Assembly (NCBI RefSeq): GCF_054482525.1
Contig: NZ_JBTHVG010000003.1
DNA: 64,000 nucleotides
DNA from: a plasmid
Reading direction: 5' to 3' (one strand)
Made by a program: the position numbers and the translations under genes. Position 1 is the first letter of the stretch, and each line of letters opens with the position of its first letter. Below are positions 12,640 through 55,930 of this stretch, one piece after another. The notes below the pieces were generated by a model, which searched no databases, was not told the origin of the DNA, and was given only the letters and a program-made list of their open reading frames with translations.

Positions 12640-12676
12640 TATTATATGTAAACAGCCTCAGCGGCTAATAACCCGT
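12640..12676 (-). promoter_or_regulatory. Conserved promoter cassette
   Basis: Coding strand GGGTTATTAGCC, 16 nt, TATAAT, then RBS and ATG at 12620. Confidence 0.45.
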
Positions 12677-18139: not shown

Positions 18140-18545
18140 AGGGCTGCATCAGCCAGGCCCGGATATAAATACATGCTCTGCCAGGTGAGTACCACTGCCC
18201 GGTAGCCGAATGATAAGTTTTGATTTCACGGTTGCAATTTCTCCCTCTGGCATCACTGCTCCACGATGCACCCCGATCAGCTTAGCGTCTGAAAATGAAG
18301 ATGCACCGGACCTGCATGAAGCGGAACGGTGCCCAGCTGAGTGTTTGTGGGCACAATGAACCGCAATTTCATGATGGGAATGAAAGATGGCTGGTGGCCC
18401 GCTGATATGAACGCTTACCCTGCATAACGTTACTAACCACAATCTTTTCACTAAAAGAAAAAAGGGTTCCTCCGCTTTAGAGGAACCCTTTCAAAAGGTG
18501 CCGATGGCATACTAATCCACACCCTGAAAAGAGGGGGGTTGCCCC

Positions 18546-19884
18546 CATAAGCGCTAACTTAAGGGTTGTGGTATTACGCCTGATATGATTTAACGTGCCG
18601 ATGAATTACTCTCACGATAACTGGTCAGCAATTCTGGCCCATATTGGTAAGCCCGAAGAACTGGATACTTCGGCACGTAATGCCGGGGCTCTAACCCGCC
18701 GCCGCGAAATTCGTGATGCTGCAACTCTGCTACGTCTGGGGCTGGCTTACGGCCCCGGGGGGATGTCATTACGTGAAGTCACTGCATGGGCTCAGCTCCA
18801 TGACGTTGCAACATTATCTGACGTGGCTCTCCTGAAGCGGCTGCGGAATGCCGCCGACTGGTTTGGCATACTTGCCGCACAAACACTTGCTGTACGCGCC
18901 GCAGTTACGGGTTGTACAAGCGGAAAGAGATTGCGTCTTGTCGATGGAACAGCAATCAGTGCGCCCGGGGGCGGCAGCGCTGAATGGCGACTACATATGG
19001 GATATGATCCTCATACCTGTCAGTTCACTGATTTTGAGCTAACCGACAGCAGAGACGCTGAACGGCTGGACCGATTTGCGCAAACGGCAGACGAGATACG
19101 CATTGCTGACCGGGGATTCGGTTCGCGTCCCGAATGTATCCGCTCACTTGCTTTTGGAGAAGCTGATTATATCGTCCGGGTTCACTGGCGAGGATTGCGC
19201 TGGTTAACTGCAGAAGGAATGCGCTTTGACATGATGGGTTTTCTGCGCGGGCTGGATTGCGGTAAGAACGGTGAAACCACTGTAATGATAGGCAATTCAG
19301 GTAATAAAAAAGCCGGAGCTCCCTTTCCGGCACGTCTCATTGCCGTATCACTTCCTCCCGAAAAAGCATTAATCAGTAAAACCCGACTGCTCAGCGAGAA
19401 TCGTCGAAAAGGACGAGTAGTTCAGGCGGAAACGCTGGAAGCAGCGGGCCATGTGCTATTGCTAACATCATTACCGGAAGATGAATATTCAGCAGAGCAA
19501 GTGGCTGATTGTTACCGTCTGCGATGGCAAATTGAACTGGCTTTTAAGCGGCTCAAAAGTTTGCTGCACCTGGATGCTTTGCGTGCAAAGGAACCTGAAC
19601 TCGCGAAAGCGTGGATATTTGCTAATCTACTCGCCGCATTTTTAATTGACGACATAATCCAGCCATCGCTGGATTTCCCCCCCAGAAGTGCCGGATCCGA
19701 AAAGAAGAACTAACTCGTTGTGGAGAATAACAAAAATGGTCATCTGGAGCTTACAGGTGGCCATTCGTGGGACAGTATCCCTGACAGCCTACAAAACGCA
19801 ATTGAAGAACGCGAGGCATCGTCTTAACGAGGCACCGAGGCGTCGCATTCTTCAGATGGTTCAACCCTTAAGTTAGCGCTTATG
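18546..19884 (+). mobile_element. IS186 (IS4 family) insertion sequence, complete
   Basis: Terminal inverted repeats CATAAGCGCTAACTTAAGGGTTG at both ends; 11-bp direct target duplication GGGGTTGCCCC (18535-18545 and 19885-19895); inserted in a GC-rich palindrome. Confidence 0.9.
18595..19713 (+). CDS. IS186 transposase
   Basis: 372-aa ORF recognised as the IS186/IS4-family transposase, framed by the IS186 inverted repeats. Confidence 0.9.
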   Translation: MPMNYSHDNWSAILAHIGKPEELDTSARNAGALTRRREIRDAATLLRLGLAYGPGGMSLREVTAWAQLHDVATLSDVALLKRLRNAADWFGILAAQTLAVRAAVTGCTSGKRLRLVDGTAISAPGGGSAEWRLHMGYDPHTCQFTDFELTDSRDAERLDRFAQTADEIRIADRGFGSRPECIRSLAFGEADYIVRVHWRGLRWLTAEGMRFDMMGFLRGLDCGKNGETTVMIGNSGNKKAGAPFPARLIAVSLPPEKALISKTRLLSENRRKGRVVQAETLEAAGHVLLLTSLPEDEYSAEQVADCYRLRWQIELAFKRLKSLLHLDALRAKEPELAKAWIFANLLAAFLIDDIIQPSLDFPPRSAGSEKKN

Positions 19885-19907
19885 GGGGTTGCCCCCCTCT
19901 TTGTCAG

Positions 19908-23681: not shown

Positions 23682-23720
23682 CATTATAACAACTGGCATC
23701 CCGCCACAAATAACCTGAGA
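23682..23720 (-). promoter_or_regulatory. Conserved promoter cassette (variant -35)
   Basis: AGGTTATTTGTG then TTATAAT upstream of the gene starting at 23655. Confidence 0.4.
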
Positions 23721-24342: not shown

Positions 24343-24396
24343 GAACCGGTCCTTATTAAATTATAAAAGCCACCCGAGAGTGGCCTGAGTTGAAAC

Positions 24397-24779: not shown

Positions 24780-25073
24780 TTAGAGGTGTGCGTTCGCCTT
24801 GAGAGCCTCATGCCCTGAGGAGCTCAACTTGAGCCGATAGTATAAACCTGGCTCCAGATGGCTTGCTGGCTGGCATAACTCCACGAGGCCGAGCCGGAAC
24901 AGGACCGGAGAGCTCCTGCACGTCACATCATCAGGATTCCCCATAAACGTACGCCGTTCTCTGGCCCGTCTGAAATTGCCAGAGATATCATAGACCGTGC
25001 CGGATGCCATCCGTCGTAACACGTAAATCTGTGCCATTGTAAGCTTCTGGGCGGAACTGCTTAAACCTGACAT
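24780..25073 (-). CDS. Hypothetical protein
   Basis: 97-aa ORF. Confidence 0.35.
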   Translation of the reverse strand: MSGLSSSAQKLTMAQIYVLRRMASGTVYDISGNFRRARERRTFMGNPDDVTCRSSPVLFRLGLVELCQPASHLEPGLYYRLKLSSSGHEALKANAHL

Positions 25074-25152
25074 ACCTTCCCCTCCTTATATAAAACAATC
25101 CGCCAGCAGCTCGACTGGCGGACAATGTTTGACTGGCAACAGCAAGGACATA

Positions 25153-25644
25153 CTATTTAGTGACAAGTTTGATCTTGGTTTCACTCATTCGAAGTCGAAA
25201 CTCCTGAAAACCCTGCTCTACCGCTAACTCCAGCCACTCAACGGGAATGGTATAGCTACAATCAGACCCACCCAAAGCGGCATCACAAGCGTAATCCCAG
25301 TCCTCATCCAGTTTTGGATTCATCCCCTGGGCGTAAGCCACAGTATCGCGGGATGCGGGAGAGCCCTCAAGCTCAGCATTAGTGATCAGGTATACACCAT
25401 GACTGTGCGCGAGAAGCACTTTTGGCACCAGATGTGTGCTGGCAATTTTTGAGGATGAGGGAAAGAAAACCCTACCAGCTTTACGCGCCTCTTCTTCAGT
25501 CTGTCCCTCAGCGTTAAGGAGGGCTCCCCCCGGATAGCATGCCGGGTCATAGATCTGATCTGCGGTGACCGAAAACGTTTTTGCGGTGCGAATTTCTTCG
25601 ATCAGTTTATTAATATCCGCCATTTCAAATACGAGAGTGGTCAC
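25153..25644 (-). CDS. Hypothetical protein
   Basis: 163-aa ORF; start overlaps or abuts the next gene. Confidence 0.5.
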   Translation of the reverse strand: MTTLVFEMADINKLIEEIRTAKTFSVTADQIYDPACYPGGALLNAEGQTEEEARKAGRVFFPSSSKIASTHLVPKVLLAHSHGVYLITNAELEGSPASRDTVAYAQGMNPKLDEDWDYACDAALGGSDCSYTIPVEWLELAVEQGFQEFRLRMSETKIKLVTK

Positions 25645-25648
25645 AGGC

Positions 25649-25960
25649 TTACTCTCCCTCTTCAGTGGACAACATCAGATACTTTGTTGCCAGCAGAAGC
25701 TCTCCCACATCCTTGAGGGACAATTCAGCTTTGCCTTCTACGGCAAGCTGCAAGCGCTGTCGAATTGCATGAACAGAATCTGAAGATAAAGATGCCATTT
25801 TGCGCAAAACGGCATTAGCCTTTTCTACAGCAGGATACAGAATTTCTGAGTTGGTATTATCTTCGTCATTATCAAAGATAATTTCAGAATCCATATTGAT
25901 GTTATCTTCAAGCCAGCTTGAAAGCACTTCAAGTAATGACATCACCTTTTCAATTTGCAT
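25649..25960 (-). CDS. Small acidic hypothetical protein
   Basis: ATG at 25960 with AGGAGG 5 nt upstream; strongly acidic (D/E-rich). Confidence 0.45.
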   Translation of the reverse strand: MQIEKVMSLLEVLSSWLEDNINMDSEIIFDNDEDNTNSEILYPAVEKANAVLRKMASLSSDSVHAIRQRLQLAVEGKAELSLKDVGELLLATKYLMLSTEEGE

Positions 25961-25985
25961 ATCGCCTCCTCTGTTAATGTGAAAC

Positions 25986-26024
25986 AAATATAACAAAGTG
26001 GCTTACCCGGCTAATAACCTGAGC
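25986..26024 (-). promoter_or_regulatory. Conserved promoter cassette
   Basis: CTCAGGTTATTAGCC then TATATT upstream of the ATG at 25960. Confidence 0.45.
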
Positions 26025-26475
26025 AGAAAGTTTTCGCACTTTGTTTGAAAACAACTTTTCTGCTCAGGTTAATGTTAAAGTCGCTGTGTAAAAGATAAAG
26101 GGCACTAAAGATGATTTAAGCATCAAACAGACTAAATCGGATTCCGTCTTTTATATCGCTTTTAAAATAGAATGAATGAAATATAAATTTAGCGTTTATG
26201 ATTGAACGCTGTAGAGGTTGATTTATCCAGTGATATTCAGTTTGGGGCCTTAAAAAGGTTTTATTTTGGATTCGAATTACAAAGGGAGCACCGACATTTT
26301 TCTGGGGGCTCCCGCAGAGAAAAAGCGGTGAGGCTATGAAGACGAAGAGGAGGTATTCGACGAAATACTGTATGGCCACAGGAGAGCTTCAGCACCCATA
26401 TCCTGCCGTCTCGCTCGCCTGTAATGATTTCAACATGTACAACGTCATACCACGTAGTTGTATTTCTCACTTTGT

Positions 26476-26796
26476 TTATGCTTCCTGACACCGTGTGAAC
26501 GCAATCTTCGTCTGGATGCGTTCATAGATGGAAAACTGCCTTTCAATGGAACCGGCATTAGACAGTAATTCATGAAGCTCAGCAGAGTCTGTATCGGGAA
26601 CGATAGCTACAGAAACTCCATATCTCCGTCCAATTTTGATTAGGTGCGCAAGCTGTTCTTTTTCGGATTCTGTGAGCATTGCCAGATCTCTTCCGGACAC
26701 CTGCTCTATAAACGAACCAAGGTTTTTGGGAAAAAAGGGTTCGGCATCAGAGTTATGTGCTGGGCGCGTCTGCGGCTTATCGAAGCTATTGGGCAT
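26476..26796 (-). CDS. Hypothetical protein
   Basis: 106-aa ORF. Confidence 0.45.
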   Translation of the reverse strand: MPNSFDKPQTRPAHNSDAEPFFPKNLGSFIEQVSGRDLAMLTESEKEQLAHLIKIGRRYGVSVAIVPDTDSAELHELLSNAGSIERQFSIYERIQTKIAFTRCQEA

Positions 26797-26947
26797 GAAT
26801 AGAACCTATACAGTTAGAGAACTGGAGAATGGATAAAGACTCTATGAAAATCAGTTGTGCTACACTCGAATGCTAATCAAGCTTTATGATGGCTTTAGTA
26901 GGGATGGCCGTCAACTTAAACCGATAAGAAGGGAGCCATTTATCGTT

Positions 26948-26958
26948 AAAGTAACTTT
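26948..26958. promoter_or_regulatory. Palindrome copy
   Basis: AAAGTAACTTTCCCGG, about 150 nt upstream of the gene starting at 26796. Confidence 0.5.
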
Positions 26959-26975
26959 CCCGGATGATGCTCTTT

Positions 26976-27203
26976 TTACGAAATAAGTTTCTCACACTCC
27001 TGTATAAGAGTCGCCCTGGAACGAGATCGACTGGCTTTGCTTAATGAAGAGCGTAGTTGATGTTCATCAACCCCATCAGCGATAAACTGACCGATTTTTG
27101 TTTCAAGCCGCTGCATTGCCTCGTAAAGCTTGGCATCCGCATTATTTTTAAGAAACCTCAGTATATAATCAGCAATAATTTGGACGGGAGTGAACTTATA
27201 CAT
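26976..27203 (-). CDS. Small hypothetical protein
   Basis: 75-aa ORF. Confidence 0.4.
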   Translation of the reverse strand: MYKFTPVQIIADYILRFLKNNADAKLYEAMQRLETKIGQFIADGVDEHQLRSSLSKASRSRSRATLIQECEKLIS

Positions 27204-27430
27204 TATGTATCCTTAAGACGTTGTGTTAAATGATTCAAAAAAATTTATAACCAGACGTAAATTATTATACATAAGTAAGCACTTTAGCTAACAAGCTGGA
27301 GGAGTGAATTTCGGTTAGCAACTATATTTTAGAAGCTGATTGCTGAATAGACAAAGCCCGGCTTACCGGGCATTCATTTAATTAGATGCTAGAAATCTGA
27401 CCCGTCGTCTGACTTTTATTCCAGGCAGAG

Positions 27431-28042
27431 TTAGGAACTAATAATGATGGCCTGGTCAGTTTGAGGAAGCCGGTTTCCTCTGATAAATGCAGGGTGGTTT
27501 AAACGAGAAGAAGAAATGGTCATCGCCAGAAATGTCTCTTCACGCGAACGCAGAAATTCCCCCCATGAATAGGTTTCCCATACGTCGTGAGAAAGGTCGG
27601 ATTCCTTTATGTACCGGGATTGCATTGTTGGCTCAAAATCGACAGGGGCTAAACTGTCATAGGATGGATGAACACGGTACCCCAATCCCTCCTCCGTCTG
27701 ATGGTATGCATGTGCCAAAAGGACATCGTGGGAGACCAGGTCATAGTCGTTGTCCTGAACGAGCGTTTTTACGGTATGACTAATTTCCCCAAAGCCGTCT
27801 ATTTCCCAGAGCGTTATCATTGTGAACTCAGCTAAAGTTCGTGGGCTCTTTACCAGAAAGCCATTTAATGCTCGTCGCCCCTTCAGCATGCCAACGTGGT
27901 AGGTCTTGTTGGGATAGGGTTTCATTGCCACCAGCGAATCAGCTTTAAGCTCAAGTGACAATTCAGGGACAGACACGGACATGAGAGTACACTTGTTTTT
28001 CATATGGTGAAGAATACGTGGCACAAGATGCAGATACATCAT
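27431..28042 (-). CDS. Hypothetical protein
   Basis: 203-aa ORF. Confidence 0.45.
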   Translation of the reverse strand: MMYLHLVPRILHHMKNKCTLMSVSVPELSLELKADSLVAMKPYPNKTYHVGMLKGRRALNGFLVKSPRTLAEFTMITLWEIDGFGEISHTVKTLVQDNDYDLVSHDVLLAHAYHQTEEGLGYRVHPSYDSLAPVDFEPTMQSRYIKESDLSHDVWETYSWGEFLRSREETFLAMTISSSRLNHPAFIRGNRLPQTDQAIIISS

Positions 28043-33686: not shown

Positions 33687-33726
33687 GATCATAACAAACA
33701 CACTACTACCAACTAATAACCTGAAG
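33687..33726 (-). promoter_or_regulatory. Conserved promoter cassette
   Basis: TCAGGTTATTAGTT then TATGAT upstream of the GTG at 33645. Confidence 0.45.
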
Positions 33727-33871
33727 TCGTTTTTTTAGAAAAAATATTAAGAAGAATATGAACACCACCTCATCTTAAATTAATATTGTTCAGGATTAAT
33801 ATTCATTTTTGCAAATAAAAACCGCCAGACGGCGGCTTTTATAAAGAGGGAAATATCATTGGAAGCTGAAA

Positions 33872-38319: not shown

Positions 38320-38370
38320 CATGATACGGTAATGATACCAGGTCGATATCATTACCTAATAACTTGGTGA
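38320..38370 (-). promoter_or_regulatory. Conserved promoter cassette (variant)
   Basis: AAGTTATTAGGT then TATCAT upstream of the start at 38297. Confidence 0.4.
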
Positions 38371-38791: not shown

Positions 38792-38829
38792 TTATTATAC
38801 TGTTACCCAACCCCCAGCTAATAACCTCC
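38792..38829 (-). promoter_or_regulatory. Conserved promoter cassette
   Basis: GGAGGTTATTAGCT, about 17 nt, TATAAT upstream of the start at 38769. Confidence 0.45.
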
Positions 38830-41199: not shown

Positions 41200-41252
41200 T
41201 TAGTTCTGGAGTAATCATGACAGAATGAATCTACTGGCTAATAACCTGAGAG
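41200..41252 (-). promoter_or_regulatory. Conserved promoter cassette
   Basis: CTCAGGTTATTAGCC upstream of the start at 41183; the -10 element is less clear. Confidence 0.4.
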
Positions 41253-41617
41253 TAAATATTTTAAAAAAACATTGAGAGAGGGTCTGCAAATTTATACACG
41301 AAGGATTCAAATATAATTTTGTTTAAAAAATTAAGAGCATTCTGAAGTAAAAGTGCATCAAAAAGCATTCATGGATAAATCATGTACTGGTGCCAGCCAT
41401 TTAAACGCGGGCATTGTTCCGGAGTGATTAAACGGTTTAGCATCATAGATTAAAACCAAAAGGAAGGCGTCCTTCCCGTCTCGGGAATATTACTTTCCCG
41501 TTTGCAATTTAAGAGCCACTTAATGAGAAAGTAATAATTAAGTCATGCTCAACTCTACATATTACATTGAGGATGGCGTAACAGGGTACGGCATACTACC
41601 GCACCCTTCTGAAGAGC

Positions 41618-44505: not shown

Positions 44506-44545
44506 GGAGGTTATTAGCTCGTGCATCTGGATTGTTAATATAAAG
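44506..44545 (+). promoter_or_regulatory. Conserved promoter cassette, plus-strand copy
   Basis: GGAGGTTATTAGCTC then about 17 nt to TAATAT, upstream of the gene at 44569. Confidence 0.45.
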
Positions 44546-50290: not shown

Positions 50291-50700
50291 TCAACCGGGG
50301 ATGACAACGGGAGTGAGTCCGGCAACTCACACCTGTTGTCACTTCTCTGACATATCGTCATACGAGCTTACTCAAGCGCATCCACAAAGATGGGATCGTT
50401 TTGAATCTAAACTGGTACTGGTTAGCCAGTCACTTGCATCTACTCCCCCGTCGATATTTAAGTGACAATTGTAGTGATCTGCAATACTGGTGTCTCAGAA
50501 ACACTGACGACGGTAGAGACTCAATACCCTAACCCCTGACAACAGAAGTGAGCTTAGAGGTGTTACGCTGCTGTCACCTAATGCTTGGGAATTGCCTGAC
50601 TCACAACCATTGTCATCCGGAGCTACTGATTAACGTTGAACCGCTGGACTTTAATGACAGTGGTAGTGATGGATAGGCTCATTTCCATTGTCGTCATTTT
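50291..50700. repeat. Three or four further iteron-like inverted pairs on the far side of the IS91-family element
   Basis: gacaacgggagtgag...ctcacacctgttgtc and similar copies at about 50291, 50526, 50581 and 50650. Confidence 0.5.
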
Positions 50701-52422: not shown

Positions 52423-53660
52423 TGACAATGGTAGTGATTGGATGATCTCACTACTGTTGTCACTCAGTTCTTTGAGCGGACCCTTCCCTCGGTTGGTCGG
52501 CATTAACAACGGTAGTGACTCGATTGGCTCACTGCCATTGTCATCGTGTAAATGACGTACCTTATCAGCTCAGCTGAAAGCAATGACAACGGTAGTGACT
52601 CTAATTGCTCACTGCCATTGTCGTCGTGTCTATTGAGAGCCTTATCAGTGCACCTGAAAAGCAATGACAACGGTAGTGATTCTAATGGCTCACTACCGTT
52701 GTCACCGTGTGTATTGAGAGGATGGTCCACTTAACTGGACGTATATGACAATGGTAGTGACTTTAATAGCTCACTACCATTGTCGGTGTGTGAATTGAGA
52801 GGATGAGCAGCTCAGCTGTACGTCCATGACAATGGTAATGACTTAATGAGCTCACTACCGTTGTCACCCTGTTAATTAAGAGGCTCATCTGCTCTTCTGG
52901 AAGGCTATGACAACGGAAGTGACTTGCTGGGCTCACTGCCATTGTCGCCGTATGAATTGAGAGGATCATCCGCTCTTCTGGATGGCAATGACAACGGTAA
53001 TGACTTAATAGGCTCACTACCATTGTCACCCTGTGAATTGAGAGGATGATCTGCTTAACCAGACGGCCATGACAACGGTAGTGACTTTCTGGGCTCAATA
53101 CCGTTGTCACCCTGTGAGTTAAGAGGTTGACCCGCTCTACTGGACGGCCATGACAACGGTAGTCACTTTCTGGGCTCACTACCGTTGTCGCCATATAGAA
53201 TGAGAGGAGCATCAGCTCAACTGAACGGCAATGACTACAGTAATGAGCTGGATGAAGCATAACCATTGACATCTGGCCCAACCGGAAGCCGTATTCGCCA
53301 ATCCAATCGAGATTCACAATGGCCGTGACTCGCCGCATTAAGTTCCGGTGTCCTCCCAAAGCTGAACGCACACTCGGAGGACAATGACAATGCCAGTAAG
53401 GTACACATCATTACCATTGTCACTATAGCTACCAGAGAAGCCGGGATTTGAATGTCGATGGTAGTGAGTGGGTCAACTCACTGCCATTGTCACCCCGTTA
53501 CGATATTTTCCGTTGGATGTACTGGCCAATGAAGTAAAGCGTAGAAACCGGGTGTTAACAGGTGACTCAGGAGAAAGCGTTGAATTTCGCAATCTCGATC
53601 TACATAGGGTGGTAGAGAACAATGACAACGGTAATGACTTTTGACTCATTACCGTTGACG
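52423..53660. repeat. Tandem array of about 15 units (~80 bp each), each containing an inverted pair of iteron-like 15-mers
   Basis: tgacaacggtagtgac...ctcactaccgttgtca repeated at roughly 80-bp spacing; lies 3' of repA, comparable to incA-type copy-control iteron arrays. Confidence 0.7.
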
Positions 53661-54892: not shown

Positions 54893-55575
54893 TGGATCAT
54901 TGTGATGATCCATATCTGTGCATAAGTTCTACCTAAAAAAACGACTCCACTCATTAAAACTTGGCAAAAACTCTTTGCATACAATGACCTGCAACTCTTA
55001 TCAACAACGGATCAGATCAAGTTAAAAAGATCTAATGAAAAGTCACTACTATTGTCGCTCTGATCACTACTGATGTCAAAAAACTCATTACCAACGTTAT
55101 AATAATCACTACTAATGTCAAAATAATCACTACTGTTGTCACTGATCACGTCTCAGGCCTTGTGCCGTCTGGCCTGGAGGCAGCGGGGATCTCTTTTGAT
55201 CTATCAGGAACACTAAGGTACTAATTATTGGAACTACCTTGTGGAAAATGGGGATAAATAAATGCTTAGTTCTTATACAGGTCTCAACTTGCCTCCCTGA
55301 TAAAAACTGTCGTCAAAGCTAAATCGCAGCCACAGGCATTTTCGGTGGATAAATTTTTGAGAAATAGAAGCATACATGCAGACTCGTGTCGCAAGTAATT
55401 GAAAGTAATGATTTATTTAAATAATGCGAGTCACCTTACCTCACAGTGGAAGTTTAAGTCTAACCTCACTACCATTGTCACTTAAAATCATTACCAACGT
55501 CGAAATAGTCTCTACCATTGTCTTTTAAGTCACTCCCGTTGTCACTTATGTCGCTACTGTTGTCAGTGACAATGC
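54893..55575 (-). promoter_or_regulatory. Putative replication origin and repA control region
   Basis: GATC cluster (54893-55040); five direct ~21-bp iterons TCACTACnnTTGTC (55043-55145); DnaA-box-like GGTGGATAA (55345-55353) within an AT-rich stretch; five more iterons (55466-55575). Confidence 0.55.
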
Positions 55576-55930
55576 TCCAGCCCAGTAACCATGCGGCCTA
55601 CAGCGTACCGGGATCTTCTTTGTACTCTCTGGCACCTTTGGGATCATTTATTGGATCTACATGAGGGATAAAATCTTTTGACGATTTCGTAGTGCAGTTA
55701 TACCAGCGACTTAGCAAGACAAAAGCTGCAATTTAGTGACGAGTTACTAGTCTGCCCAACAAGAGCAATGCAGAGAAGATATGTGGTGAAATGACCATGG
55801 TAGTGAGTCTAATCACTACCATGGTCCGCAGTAAGCGTTACTTACGCAATGAACGTCGGACTGATTTGCAACAACATGGGCTACGGCGCATCAGAAGGCG
55901 GCCGTTGTGCTTCAGCAAAACAGCCCTGCT

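What the first reader, a model, noticed from the sequence alone, without database searches (positions are those of the whole stretch)
26009..26072. Promoter cassette embedded in a 16-bp-stem inverted repeat
At the promoter of the gene starting at 25960, CCTGAGCAGAAAGTT (26018-26032) is repeated in inverted orientation as AACTTTTCTGCTCAGG (26053-26068). The stem therefore contains part of the conserved -35 motif in both orientations. It could be a divergent promoter, a regulator binding site or a structured RNA element.
Basis: seen in the sequence. Interest (0 to 1): 0.3.

Follow-up and report, generated by a model that had tools for sequence, protein, structure and literature searches.

The report
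Lineage-specific hairpin beside a plasmid promoter
A real, statistically unusual inverted repeat sits just upstream of a reused promoter on an IncHI2 resistance plasmid, but it looks like a one-off inverted copy of the promoter's own upstream flank that the promoter does not need, so it is ordinary and of low interest.

Summary
The arms 26015-26029 and 26057-26071 are a perfect 15-bp inverted repeat, and a 4-nt bulge extends this to a 21-bp stem (RNA -27 kcal/mol, z about -5). None of 200 simulated sequences reaches 15 bp.

The window is an IncHI2 plasmid. The promoter-proximal arm is native sequence of a promoter cassette: a T/A tract, the box AGGTTATTAGC at -40..-30, 17 nt, then an extended -10. 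This cassette drives at least 7 genes here and at least 5 on the IncHI1 plasmid pHCM1. The distal arm is an inverted copy of positions -35..-55 of that cassette.

None of the other 13 cassette copies has such a repeat. The orthologous DUF957 promoters of IncHI1, IncHI1B and one further lineage keep the box and -10 but lack the palindrome, and have an ordinary terminator (less clear in the further lineage) about 100 nt upstream. Within IncHI2 the hairpin varies more than its flanks (14/57 against 11/104 variable columns). It decays to -11 to -13 kcal/mol in two lineages, and covariation is not significant.

It is not a divergent promoter, not an Frpo-type single-strand promoter, not a shared operator, not a repeated element and not an IS target. 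The most likely reading is a weakly selected or unselected inverted duplication that at most acts as a leaky transcript-boundary hairpin. Interest is low.

The parts
26015..26035 (-). Promoter-proximal arm of the hairpin (gene strand GAAAACTTTCTGCTCAGGTTA, about -35 to -55 from the inferred start). It is native upstream flank of the promoter cassette and overlaps the first 6 nt of the box.
   Evidence: pairing; other cassettes carry similar sequence here, e.g. pHCM1 aaaaactttctttcAGGTTATTAGCC.
26036..26046 (-). 11-nt loop of the hairpin. It is among the most variable parts across IncHI2 lineages.
26047..26071 (-). Distal arm, an inverted copy of the proximal arm with a 4-nt bulge at 26053-26056 (about -67 to -91). 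Present only in IncHI2-type plasmids.
26010..26020 (-). Conserved 11-nt box AGGTTATTAGC occupying the -35 position (-30 to -40) of the promoter cassette.
   Evidence: 4 exact copies; 30 matches at up to 2 mismatches against 16.6 expected. (fixed 17-18 nt spacing to the -10). (same box and spacing in IncHI1 pHCM1).
25987..25995 (-). Extended -10 element TGTTATATT (TG, one base, then TATATT). The transcript start is inferred near 25980.
   Evidence: Invariant in all IncHI2 variants and conserved in IncHI1/HI1B.
25965..25971 (-). Ribosome-binding site GAGGAGG, 4 nt upstream of the ATG at 25960.
   Evidence: read directly.
25649..25960 (-). First gene of the unit, annotated in RefSeq as a DUF957 domain protein (103 aa).
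   Evidence: No Pfam hit at E<=0.01, so the name rests on the RefSeq annotation.
25153..25644 (-). Second gene of the unit, a DUF3085 protein (163 aa).
   Evidence: PF11284, E 6.8e-10.
25098..25123 (-). Canonical terminator-like hairpin with a T-rich tail that closes the DUF957-DUF3085 unit.
   Evidence: 10 pairs, 6 GC, tail TGTTTTATAT.
26261..26796 (-). End of the upstream transcription unit: an annotated 106-aa hypothetical gene (26476-26796) plus an unannotated 69-76-aa ORF (26261-26491). This unit has no canonical terminator before the hairpin.
   Evidence: Searches find only a weak terminator-like site at 26210-26191.

Best explanation
The hairpin is an inverted duplication, restricted to IncHI2-type plasmids, of the upstream flank (about -35 to -55) of a conserved IncHI promoter cassette, placed 11 nt further upstream. 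The cassette itself is the working part and drives the DUF957-DUF3085 unit: a T/A tract, the box AGGTTATTAGC at -40..-30, a 17-nt spacer, the extended -10 TGTTATATT, a ribosome-binding site and the ATG. It does not need the distal arm. The sequence supports only one activity for the repeat: forming a stable stem-loop whenever the stretch is single-stranded. In RNA reading through from the upstream unit it would lie directly in front of the promoter, in the slot where sister plasmids carry a true terminator. There it could act as a leaky boundary or a 3'-end-protecting hairpin. I judge it weakly selected or unselected. Shown: the anatomy, the uniqueness, the phylogenetic distribution and the variation pattern. 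Inferred: the origin by strand-switch duplication, the transcript start, and any boundary effect.
For: The proximal arm resembles the corresponding flank of other cassette copies, and the distal arm is its reverse complement plus a 4-nt insertion. The cassette geometry recurs at 7 strong and 2 weaker sites in the window and at 5 or more sites in pHCM1. None of the other 13 copies has more than a 5-8 bp inverted repeat at the box. Orthologous DUF957 promoters in IncHI1, IncHI1B and a further lineage keep the box, spacer length and -10 but have no palindrome. IncHI1 and IncHI1B have a classical terminator about 100 nt upstream. The hairpin is single-copy and confined to about 1000 IncHI2 records. 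Across 9 IncHI2 haplotypes, 14/57 hairpin columns vary against 11/104 flank columns (Fisher p 0.024). Gene-strand RNA energy ranges from -28 to -11 kcal/mol. Other units on the plasmid are bounded by canonical terminators, but the unit upstream of this promoter has none. A hairpin with only a 3-U tract works as a partial terminator on another conjugative plasmid (PMC11878559).
Against: The 15-bp arms and the 6-bp inner stem are unchanged between the two main IncHI2 lineages, although the surrounding intergenic DNA differs by 4-14 per 100 nt. All three differences inside the hairpin fall in unpaired positions. Five of nine independent single stem substitutions give G-U pairs on the gene strand, and one pair shows a G-C to A-U double change. 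That is a weak hint of RNA-level constraint (p about 0.1). No transcript data exist to show whether any RNA ends or pauses here.
Confidence: 0.55

Rival explanations
1. Selected RNA element on the gene strand. The stem-loop would be an efficient noncanonical terminator, or an RNase III-type processing or stabilising hairpin, that ends the upstream transcript just before the DUF957 promoter and insulates the two units.
For: The RNA hairpin is strong in 6 of 8 distinct IncHI2 haplotypes, at -22 to -28 kcal/mol. The L027-L029 lineage re-registers into a continuous 19-bp stem using G-U pairs. There are 5 G-U-compatible changes and 1 compensatory change. The hairpin occupies the slot of a terminator. 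A precedent exists for a short-U-tract terminator on a plasmid.
Against: There is no U-tract: the tail is UUAUUAGCC, and the site fails the terminator scan. The loop and bulge are large. The base of the stem is A-U rich. Covariation is not significant, with 212/500 and 107/500 shuffles doing as well. Two lineages have three or four pair-breaking changes each and z-scores of only -1.1 and -2.0. Stem columns vary more than the flanks.
Confidence: 0.2
2. Double-stranded DNA operator. A dimeric or looping regulator would bind the two inverted arms, whose centres are 42 bp (four helical turns) apart, and control the DUF957 promoter by occluding or recruiting RNA polymerase at the -35 box.
For: The dyad symmetry is perfect and overlaps the -35-position box. 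The box itself looks like a factor-binding element, being conserved beyond any sigma-70 hexamer at a fixed distance from the -10. Most R27 non-tra genes are under HtdA control (PMC7366339).
Against: The arm sequence occurs nowhere else in the window beyond chance, nor at any other cassette. The arms vary more than the flanks and lose symmetry in several lineages. Orthologous promoters in IncHI1/HI1B lack the palindrome. The distal arm copies only AGGTTA of the box. A 27-nt gap between half-sites is unusual for an operator (general knowledge).
Confidence: 0.1
3. Single-stranded-DNA element used during conjugative entry. The hairpin would form on the transferred strand and serve as a priming signal or as part of a minimal single-strand promoter.
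For: The hairpin folds as DNA on either strand, at -18 to -19 kcal/mol. The block consists of small same-strand genes of the kind found in establishment regions: Hok, HNH, PAPS-reductase family, DUF957 and DUF3085.
Against: Known single-strand promoters are large stem-loops that rebuild both -35 and -10. The mining threshold in PMC12672017 was below -75 kcal/mol. Here the -10 is never in a stem and only part of the box is. DNA stability falls to -6 to -14 kcal/mol in most variant lineages. oriT and the transfer direction are not known for this window, and in pHCM1 the homologous block lies next to the replicons and Tra2.
Confidence: 0.07
4. Divergent promoter. The distal arm would be a second cassette in the opposite orientation, firing a + strand transcript (an sRNA, or an antisense RNA to the upstream gene).
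For: The distal arm reproduces CTCAGGTTA and an A/T tract in the + orientation. A weak stem plus T-run is visible by eye on the + strand near 26247-26270. It was not picked up by the scan.
Against: The pseudo-box AGGTTAATGTT has 4 mismatches and lacks TTAGC. At the cassette spacing the hexamer is GATAAA, with no T at position 6 and no TG. The site fails both my cassette scan and the sigma-70 scan. No credible + strand ORF or annotated feature follows. No Rfam family matches. In L013 and L021 the pseudo-box is degraded further.
Confidence: 0.04

Closest known systems
Rho-independent (intrinsic) terminators, including the short-U-tract internal terminator of hicAB on IncI2 plasmids (PMC11878559)
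   Same: A stable RNA stem-loop downstream of a transcription unit and immediately before the next promoter. It fills the position held by a classical terminator in the IncHI1 and IncHI1B orthologous loci.
   Different: The stem is long (15+6 bp) and A-U rich at its base, with a 4-nt bulge and an 11-nt loop. The tail UUAUUAGCC is not a U-tract. It fails the consensus scan, and termination has not been shown.
Frpo/ssi single-strand promoters of conjugative plasmids (Masai and Arai 1997; PMC11541004; PMC12672017)
   Same: A hairpin overlapping promoter elements in a block of small same-strand plasmid genes. It folds as single-stranded DNA.
   Different: It is roughly an order of magnitude weaker and much shorter. 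Only part of the -35-position box is in the stem, and the -10 is never paired. It therefore cannot mimic a duplex promoter.
Palindromic operators overlapping plasmid promoters (e.g. the KorA and KorB operators of IncP plasmids; general knowledge)
   Same: Dyad symmetry overlapping the -35 region of a promoter on a large conjugative plasmid.
   Different: KorA/KorB operators are short, contiguous palindromes reused at many promoters and strongly conserved. This one is a single copy with a 27-nt gap, varies more than its flanks, and is absent from orthologous promoters.
Quasi-palindromes generated and remodelled by template switching during replication (general knowledge)
   Same: One arm is pre-existing functional sequence and the other is its inverted copy a few bases away. 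Sequence turnover is elevated within the hairpin relative to the flanks, with occasional concerted changes in both arms.
   Different: The mechanism of origin is inferred only from the anatomy. No intermediate form without the distal arm was found within IncHI2.
Phage T4 middle promoters (MotA box at -30 plus a sigma-70 extended -10; general knowledge). This is a comparator for the cassette, not for the hairpin.
   Same: A conserved box of 9-11 nt replaces the -35 hexamer at a fixed distance from a good, often TG-extended, -10.
   Different: The sequences are unrelated. No MotA/AsiA-like factor has been identified, and the box could equally be a repressor site. Nothing here was tested beyond the geometry.

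Membership tests
IncHI promoter cassette (box + extended -10), proximal arm only | 11-nt box AGGTTATTAGC at a fixed 17-18 nt from a TATAAT-like hexamer | tested here: met
   Box match 11/11 at 26010-26020, then 17 nt, then TATATT with TG. The same geometry occurs at 8 other window sites and 5 or more pHCM1 sites.
IncHI promoter cassette (box + extended -10), proximal arm only | Followed by a ribosome-binding site and the start codon of a gene, and conserved at the orthologous gene in other IncHI groups | tested here: met
   GAGGAGG then ATG at 25960. IncHI1, IncHI1B and a further lineage keep the box, spacer length and -10 upstream of DUF957.
Intrinsic terminator | Stem-loop with a short loop (3-8 nt) | tested here: not met
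   The loop is 11 nt plus a 4-nt bulge, or 27 nt between the perfect arms. In L027-L029 the loop is 19 nt.
Intrinsic terminator | U-rich tract directly after the stem (at least 5 U in 8) | tested here: not met
   The gene-strand tail is UUAUUAGC (4 of 8) and the + strand tail is AUGUUAAA. The hairpin is not reported by the scan.
Intrinsic terminator | Transcripts actually end there | not testable with these tools
   No 3'-end or RNA-seq data for IncHI2 were found.
Frpo/ssi single-strand promoter | Large stem-loop of single-stranded DNA (mined at below -75 kcal/mol in PMC12672017) | tested here: not met
   The hairpin is 57 nt and folds at -18.2 kcal/mol. The 201-nt context gives only -26 to -27 kcal/mol, with z about -3.
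Frpo/ssi single-strand promoter | -35 and -10 boxes both rebuilt as duplex within the stem | tested here: not met
   Only AGGTTA of the box is paired, and the -10 (25987-25992) is outside every predicted stem of the hairpin.
Frpo/ssi single-strand promoter | Lies in the leading region on the transferred strand | not testable with these tools
   oriT and the transfer polarity are not identifiable in the window. In pHCM1 the homologous block lies beside the replicons and Tra2.
Palindromic operator | Dyad symmetry overlapping core promoter elements | tested here: met
   Arms at -35..-49 and -77..-91 overlap 6 nt of the box.
Palindromic operator | Arms conserved relative to surrounding non-coding DNA | tested here: not met
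   10/42 stem columns vary against 11/104 flank columns, and for the whole hairpin 14/57 vary (p 0.024).
Palindromic operator | A cognate DNA-binding protein | not testable with these tools
   None has been identified. DUF957 and the neighbouring small proteins have no DNA-binding Pfam domain.
Divergent sigma-70 promoter | -35 and -10 hexamers 16-18 nt apart on the + strand, with a downstream gene | tested here: not met
   No promoter-like site was found in 25500-26800 on either strand. The pseudo-box has 4 mismatches and the hexamer is GATAAA. There is no credible + strand ORF.
Repeated extragenic palindrome or MITE-like element | Many dispersed copies | tested here: not met
   There is one locus per plasmid; the second reported place is the self-match on the opposite strand. 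Apart from one 19-nt chance-level hit, it is found only in IncHI2 records. The arm motif is at chance level elsewhere in the window.

The most novel reading that the evidence does not exclude
The 11-nt box at the -35 position, conserved at 14 or more promoters of IncHI1 and IncHI2 plasmids together with an extended -10, could mark an undescribed plasmid-wide regulon run by a dedicated box-binding factor (a repressor or a sigma-appropriating activator). The DUF957 palindrome would then be a special two-site version: the inverted half-box 48 bp upstream, or the duplex it forms on incoming single-stranded DNA, would give that factor or RNA polymerase an extra hold, and so give this unit distinct timing after plasmid entry.
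Probability: 0.08. Interest if true: 0.5.

Novelty: new member of a known kind. Interest (0 to 1): 0.15.

Why it matters
The hairpin itself matters little. It is a lineage-specific accessory of one promoter on IncHI2 plasmids, and the promoter evidently works without it in sister plasmids. What is useful is the by-product. IncHI plasmids are major carriers of mcr-1 and multidrug resistance. They organise a large block of small genes of unknown function into units of the form terminator, cassette, genes, terminator. All these units use one non-canonical promoter design (the box AGGTTATTAGC plus an extended -10), and an enriched palindrome AAAGTNACTTT occurs in the same block. I found neither motif described in the searchable literature. 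They are handles for finding the regulators of this block.

Tried and rejected
- **IS or transposon target:** six IS-bearing relatives were mapped. The insertions lie in DUF957, in DUF3085, in the upstream gene, in the next intergenic region and at 26197-26204. None is in the palindrome.
- **Known RNA family:** Rfam found nothing at gathering threshold anywhere in the window.
- **Larger Frpo-like fold:** the 201-nt and 311-nt contexts add no stem that captures the -10.
- **Split copy of the AAAGTNACTTT palindrome:** the AAAGT/ACTTT halves inside the arms might have been one. The distal AAAGT half is lost in L002, L013 and L021, so I rejected this.
it is not conserved. Position 35 of alignment A1 is G, C or A.
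- **attC-like site:** the flanking heptamers do not fit RYYYAAC/GTTRRRY. This was read by eye against a consensus recalled from memory.
- **Strand-asymmetry test using G-U pairs:** five changes favour the gene strand and two favour the opposite strand (p 0.23), which is inconclusive.
- **Genome-contig scan:** the promoter-core pattern gave one IncHI1B-type locus and no new hairpin lineage.
- **Literature search for the box sequence:** it returned only unrelated primer coincidences.
- **DUF957 protein search of plasmids:** it found only IncHI2 (100%) and IncHI1/HI1B (73%) classes, so there were no intermediate lineages.

Full report
**Observation.**
- The exact inverted repeat is 26015-26029 TAACCTGAGCAGAAA paired with 26057-26071 TTTCTGCTCAGGTTA, 15/15 complementary with 27 nt between the arms.
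- The minimum-energy fold instead has 15 bp, a 4-nt bulge (26053-26056), a 6-bp inner stem (GTTTTC/GAAAAC) and an 11-nt loop.
- The energy is -27.2 kcal/mol as RNA and -18.2 kcal/mol as DNA, with z-scores of -4.9 to -5.8.
- It ties for the longest perfect short-range inverted repeat in the window. None of 200 first-order Markov simulations reaches 15 bp.

**Context.** The window is an IncHI2 conjugative plasmid.
- The 2.5 kb around the site is 100% identical to many E. coli and Salmonella IncHI2A plasmids of 220-280 kb, such as pSA186_MCR1. It is about 94.5% identical to the second main IncHI2 lineage, which I call R478-type because the R478 record groups at the same identity in that search.
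- The hairpin lies in a roughly 300-500 bp gap between genes, all of which are on the minus strand. Downstream are DUF957 (25649-25960) and DUF3085 (25153-25644), followed by a canonical terminator at 25123-25098.
- Upstream are a 106-aa hypothetical gene (26476-26796) and an unannotated 69-76-aa ORF ending at 26261.

**The promoter cassette.** On the gene strand the hairpin is followed by AGGTTATTAGC (26020-26010), 17 nt, TGTTATATT (25995-25987), GAGGAGG and the ATG at 25960.
- The same design recurs at 12674, 23716, 33722, 38827 and 41247 on the minus strand and at 44508 on the plus strand. Weaker copies are at 27297 and 38365. The design is a T/A-rich tract, the 11-nt box, 17 (once 18) nt, a TATAAT-like hexamer (6 of 9 copies with TG), then a ribosome-binding site and a start codon.
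- It also recurs at five or more promoters of the IncHI1 plasmid pHCM1.
- The box occupies -40..-30 and is a poor sigma-70 -35. It is conserved over 11 nt at a fixed distance from the -10, so it is a real promoter element, probably a factor-binding site.
- I found no description of it. The R27 transcriptome paper shows wide HtdA-dependent repression of non-tra genes but defines no motif.
- The inferred transcript start is near 25980. The hairpin therefore spans about -35 to -91 and is not part of the DUF957 mRNA made from this promoter.

**What the hairpin is made of.** The sequence just upstream of the box in other cassette copies resembles the proximal arm. For example, pHCM1 has aaaaactttctttcAGGTTATTAGCC where the window has gaaaactttctgctcAGGTTATTAGCC.
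- The proximal arm (26015-26035) is therefore native cassette flank.
- The distal arm (26047-71) is its reverse complement with a 4-nt insertion.
- Only AGGTTA of the box is duplicated. On the + strand the distal copy reads AGGTTAATGTT, which is 7/11 of the box.
- The simplest origin is a local inverted duplication (strand switch) of about 21 nt. That origin is an inference.

**Distribution.**
- None of the other 13 cassette copies examined has more than a 5-8 bp inverted repeat at the box.
- The orthologous DUF957 promoters of IncHI1 (pHCM1), IncHI1B (a Klebsiella plasmid and a Pseudocitrobacter contig) and a further metagenomic lineage (L018/L020) keep GGTTATTAGCC, 11 nt, then TTTGTTATATT, but have no palindrome. 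IncHI1 and IncHI1B carry a classical terminator of a different upstream gene about 100 nt upstream.
- The hairpin is single-copy and confined to about 1000 IncHI2 records. Apart from one 19-nt chance-level hit, it occurs nowhere else in the plasmid collection, and its arm motif is at chance level elsewhere in the window.

**Variation within IncHI2.** A metagenome scan with the promoter core and a plasmid search with a divergent copy gave nine haplotypes (alignment A2).
- The window-type and R478-type lineages have identical stems. Their three differences inside the hairpin all lie in the bulge or loop.
- L015 has one G-U pair.
- L027-L029 carry an A-to-G change (giving G-U), an AC-to-TT change that re-registers the stem into 19 continuous pairs, and either a further C-to-T change or a 1-nt insertion.
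- L013 and L021 carry three or four pair-breaking changes each. L013 has a G-U pair where L021 has a G-C to A-U double change.
- Gene-strand RNA energies are -27, -28, -25, -26, -22 and -23 kcal/mol for the first six haplotypes, but -11 and -13 for L013 and L021 (z -1.1 and -2.0).
- Covariation is not significant: 212/500 and 107/500 shuffles do as well.
- The hairpin is more variable than its surroundings. 14 of 57 columns vary, against 11 of 104 in the flanks (Fisher p 0.024). For the stem alone it is 10/42 (p 0.065).
- In L013 and L021 the hairpin segment is the most diverged part of the locus, at 87-88% identity against 93-95% for the rest of the intergenic region, 98% for the promoter core and 99-100% for the CDS.
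- A G-U strand-asymmetry test gave five changes favouring the gene strand and two favouring the opposite strand (p 0.23), which is inconclusive.

**Tests of specific functions.**
- **Terminator:** there is no U-tract on either strand and the loop is oversized. The hairpin is not reported by the scan, which does find canonical terminators bounding other units at 27371-27356, 33833-33821, 41477-41461, 25123-25098 and 24386-24367. The unit upstream of this promoter has no canonical terminator, so a leaky boundary role remains plausible. An internal hairpin with only three U's reduces downstream RNA about tenfold on an IncI2 plasmid.
- **Divergent promoter:** not supported.
- **Single-strand promoter:** known examples are large stem-loops that rebuild -35 and -10. 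Here the -10 never pairs and the structure is small.
- **Operator:** disfavoured because the arms are unique, are absent from orthologues and vary more than the flanks.
- **IS target or mobile element:** rejected.

**Verdict.**
- With about 0.55 confidence, the feature is a lineage-specific inverted duplication of a promoter flank that is weakly selected or unselected, with at most a leaky transcript-boundary effect.
- The rivals are a selected RNA boundary or processing element (0.2), an operator (0.1), a single-stranded-DNA element (0.07) and a divergent promoter (0.04).
- In kind it is an ordinary promoter-proximal hairpin. It has not been described before, but it is not a new type of element.
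- The more interesting objects are the cassette box and the AAAGTNACTTT palindrome, which are separate findings.

Noticed in passing
window 12664-12674, 23706-23716, 26010-26020, 33712-33722, 38817-38827, 41237-41247 (all -), 44508-44518 (+); weaker copies at 27287-27297 and 38355-38365 (-); L026 (pHCM1) 18644 (+), 16982, 13603, 7928, 6732 (-): A reused promoter design. The 11-nt box AGGTTATTAGC sits at -40..-30 in place of a -35 hexamer. It lies a fixed 17-18 nt from a TATAAT-like -10 (often TG-extended) and has a T/A tract upstream. The design is conserved between IncHI2 and IncHI1. I found no description of it, and the factor that reads the box is unknown.
   Followed up: partly
window 1707, 3145, 4875, 9777, 14826, 14952, 24741, 26948, 29679, 34728, 38940, 43109, 47929, 50153, 58544, 58609 (11-mers); 13 sites in L026 1-50000: The palindrome AAAGTNACTTT is strongly over-represented: 34 strand-matches against 1.8 expected at up to 1 mismatch. 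Several sites extend to AAAGTWACTTTYCYGG and lie in gaps between genes. The motif is also enriched in IncHI1 pHCM1, including a site about 290 nt upstream of the first Tra2 gene listed. It looks like the site of a plasmid-wide DNA-binding protein.
   Followed up: partly
window 26261-26491 (-): An unannotated ORF of 69-76 aa with conserved CxH...CxCxxC residues overlaps the end of the upstream gene. It stays open in three IncHI2 lineages, with 8 nonsynonymous and 6 synonymous differences in one comparison. It has no Pfam match. It is possibly a small zinc-ribbon protein that annotation has missed.
   Followed up: partly
window about 25200-26040: Divergence between the two main IncHI2 lineages steps from about 3 differences in 800 nt to 4-14 per 100 nt right at the promoter and hairpin. 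The low-divergence block includes a DUF957 CDS that is 100% identical even at synonymous sites. This suggests a recombination boundary near 25978-26037 or unusual nucleotide-level constraint on DUF957.
   Followed up: partly
window 52423-53510, with related copies at 50302-50695 and 55018-55826: An array of about 11 tandem 81-bp units, each with a palindromic core (TGACAACGGTAGTGA...TCACTACCGTTGTCA), plus a 21-bp repeat array. These are probably iteron, incompatibility or partition repeats of the IncHI2 replicon region.
   Followed up: no
window 18528-18568 and 19862-19902: A pair of 41-bp inverted repeats (93% complementary) 1.3 kb apart, which looks like the ends of an insertion sequence.
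   Followed up: no
window 25000-27500 in relatives (L005-L011): At least six different IS elements (IS1, an IS5-family element, an IS3-family element, IS600, ISApl1, ISKpn26) have inserted independently into this 2.5-kb block in different plasmids. They interrupt DUF957, DUF3085 and the upstream genes, so these genes are dispensable for plasmid maintenance.
   Followed up: yes
window 27356-27371, 33821-33833, 41461-41477, 25098-25123, 24367-24386 (-): Canonical terminator-like hairpins sit 60-230 nt upstream of cassette promoters or directly after unit-final genes. This gives the block a modular layout of terminator, cassette, genes, terminator.
   Followed up: partly
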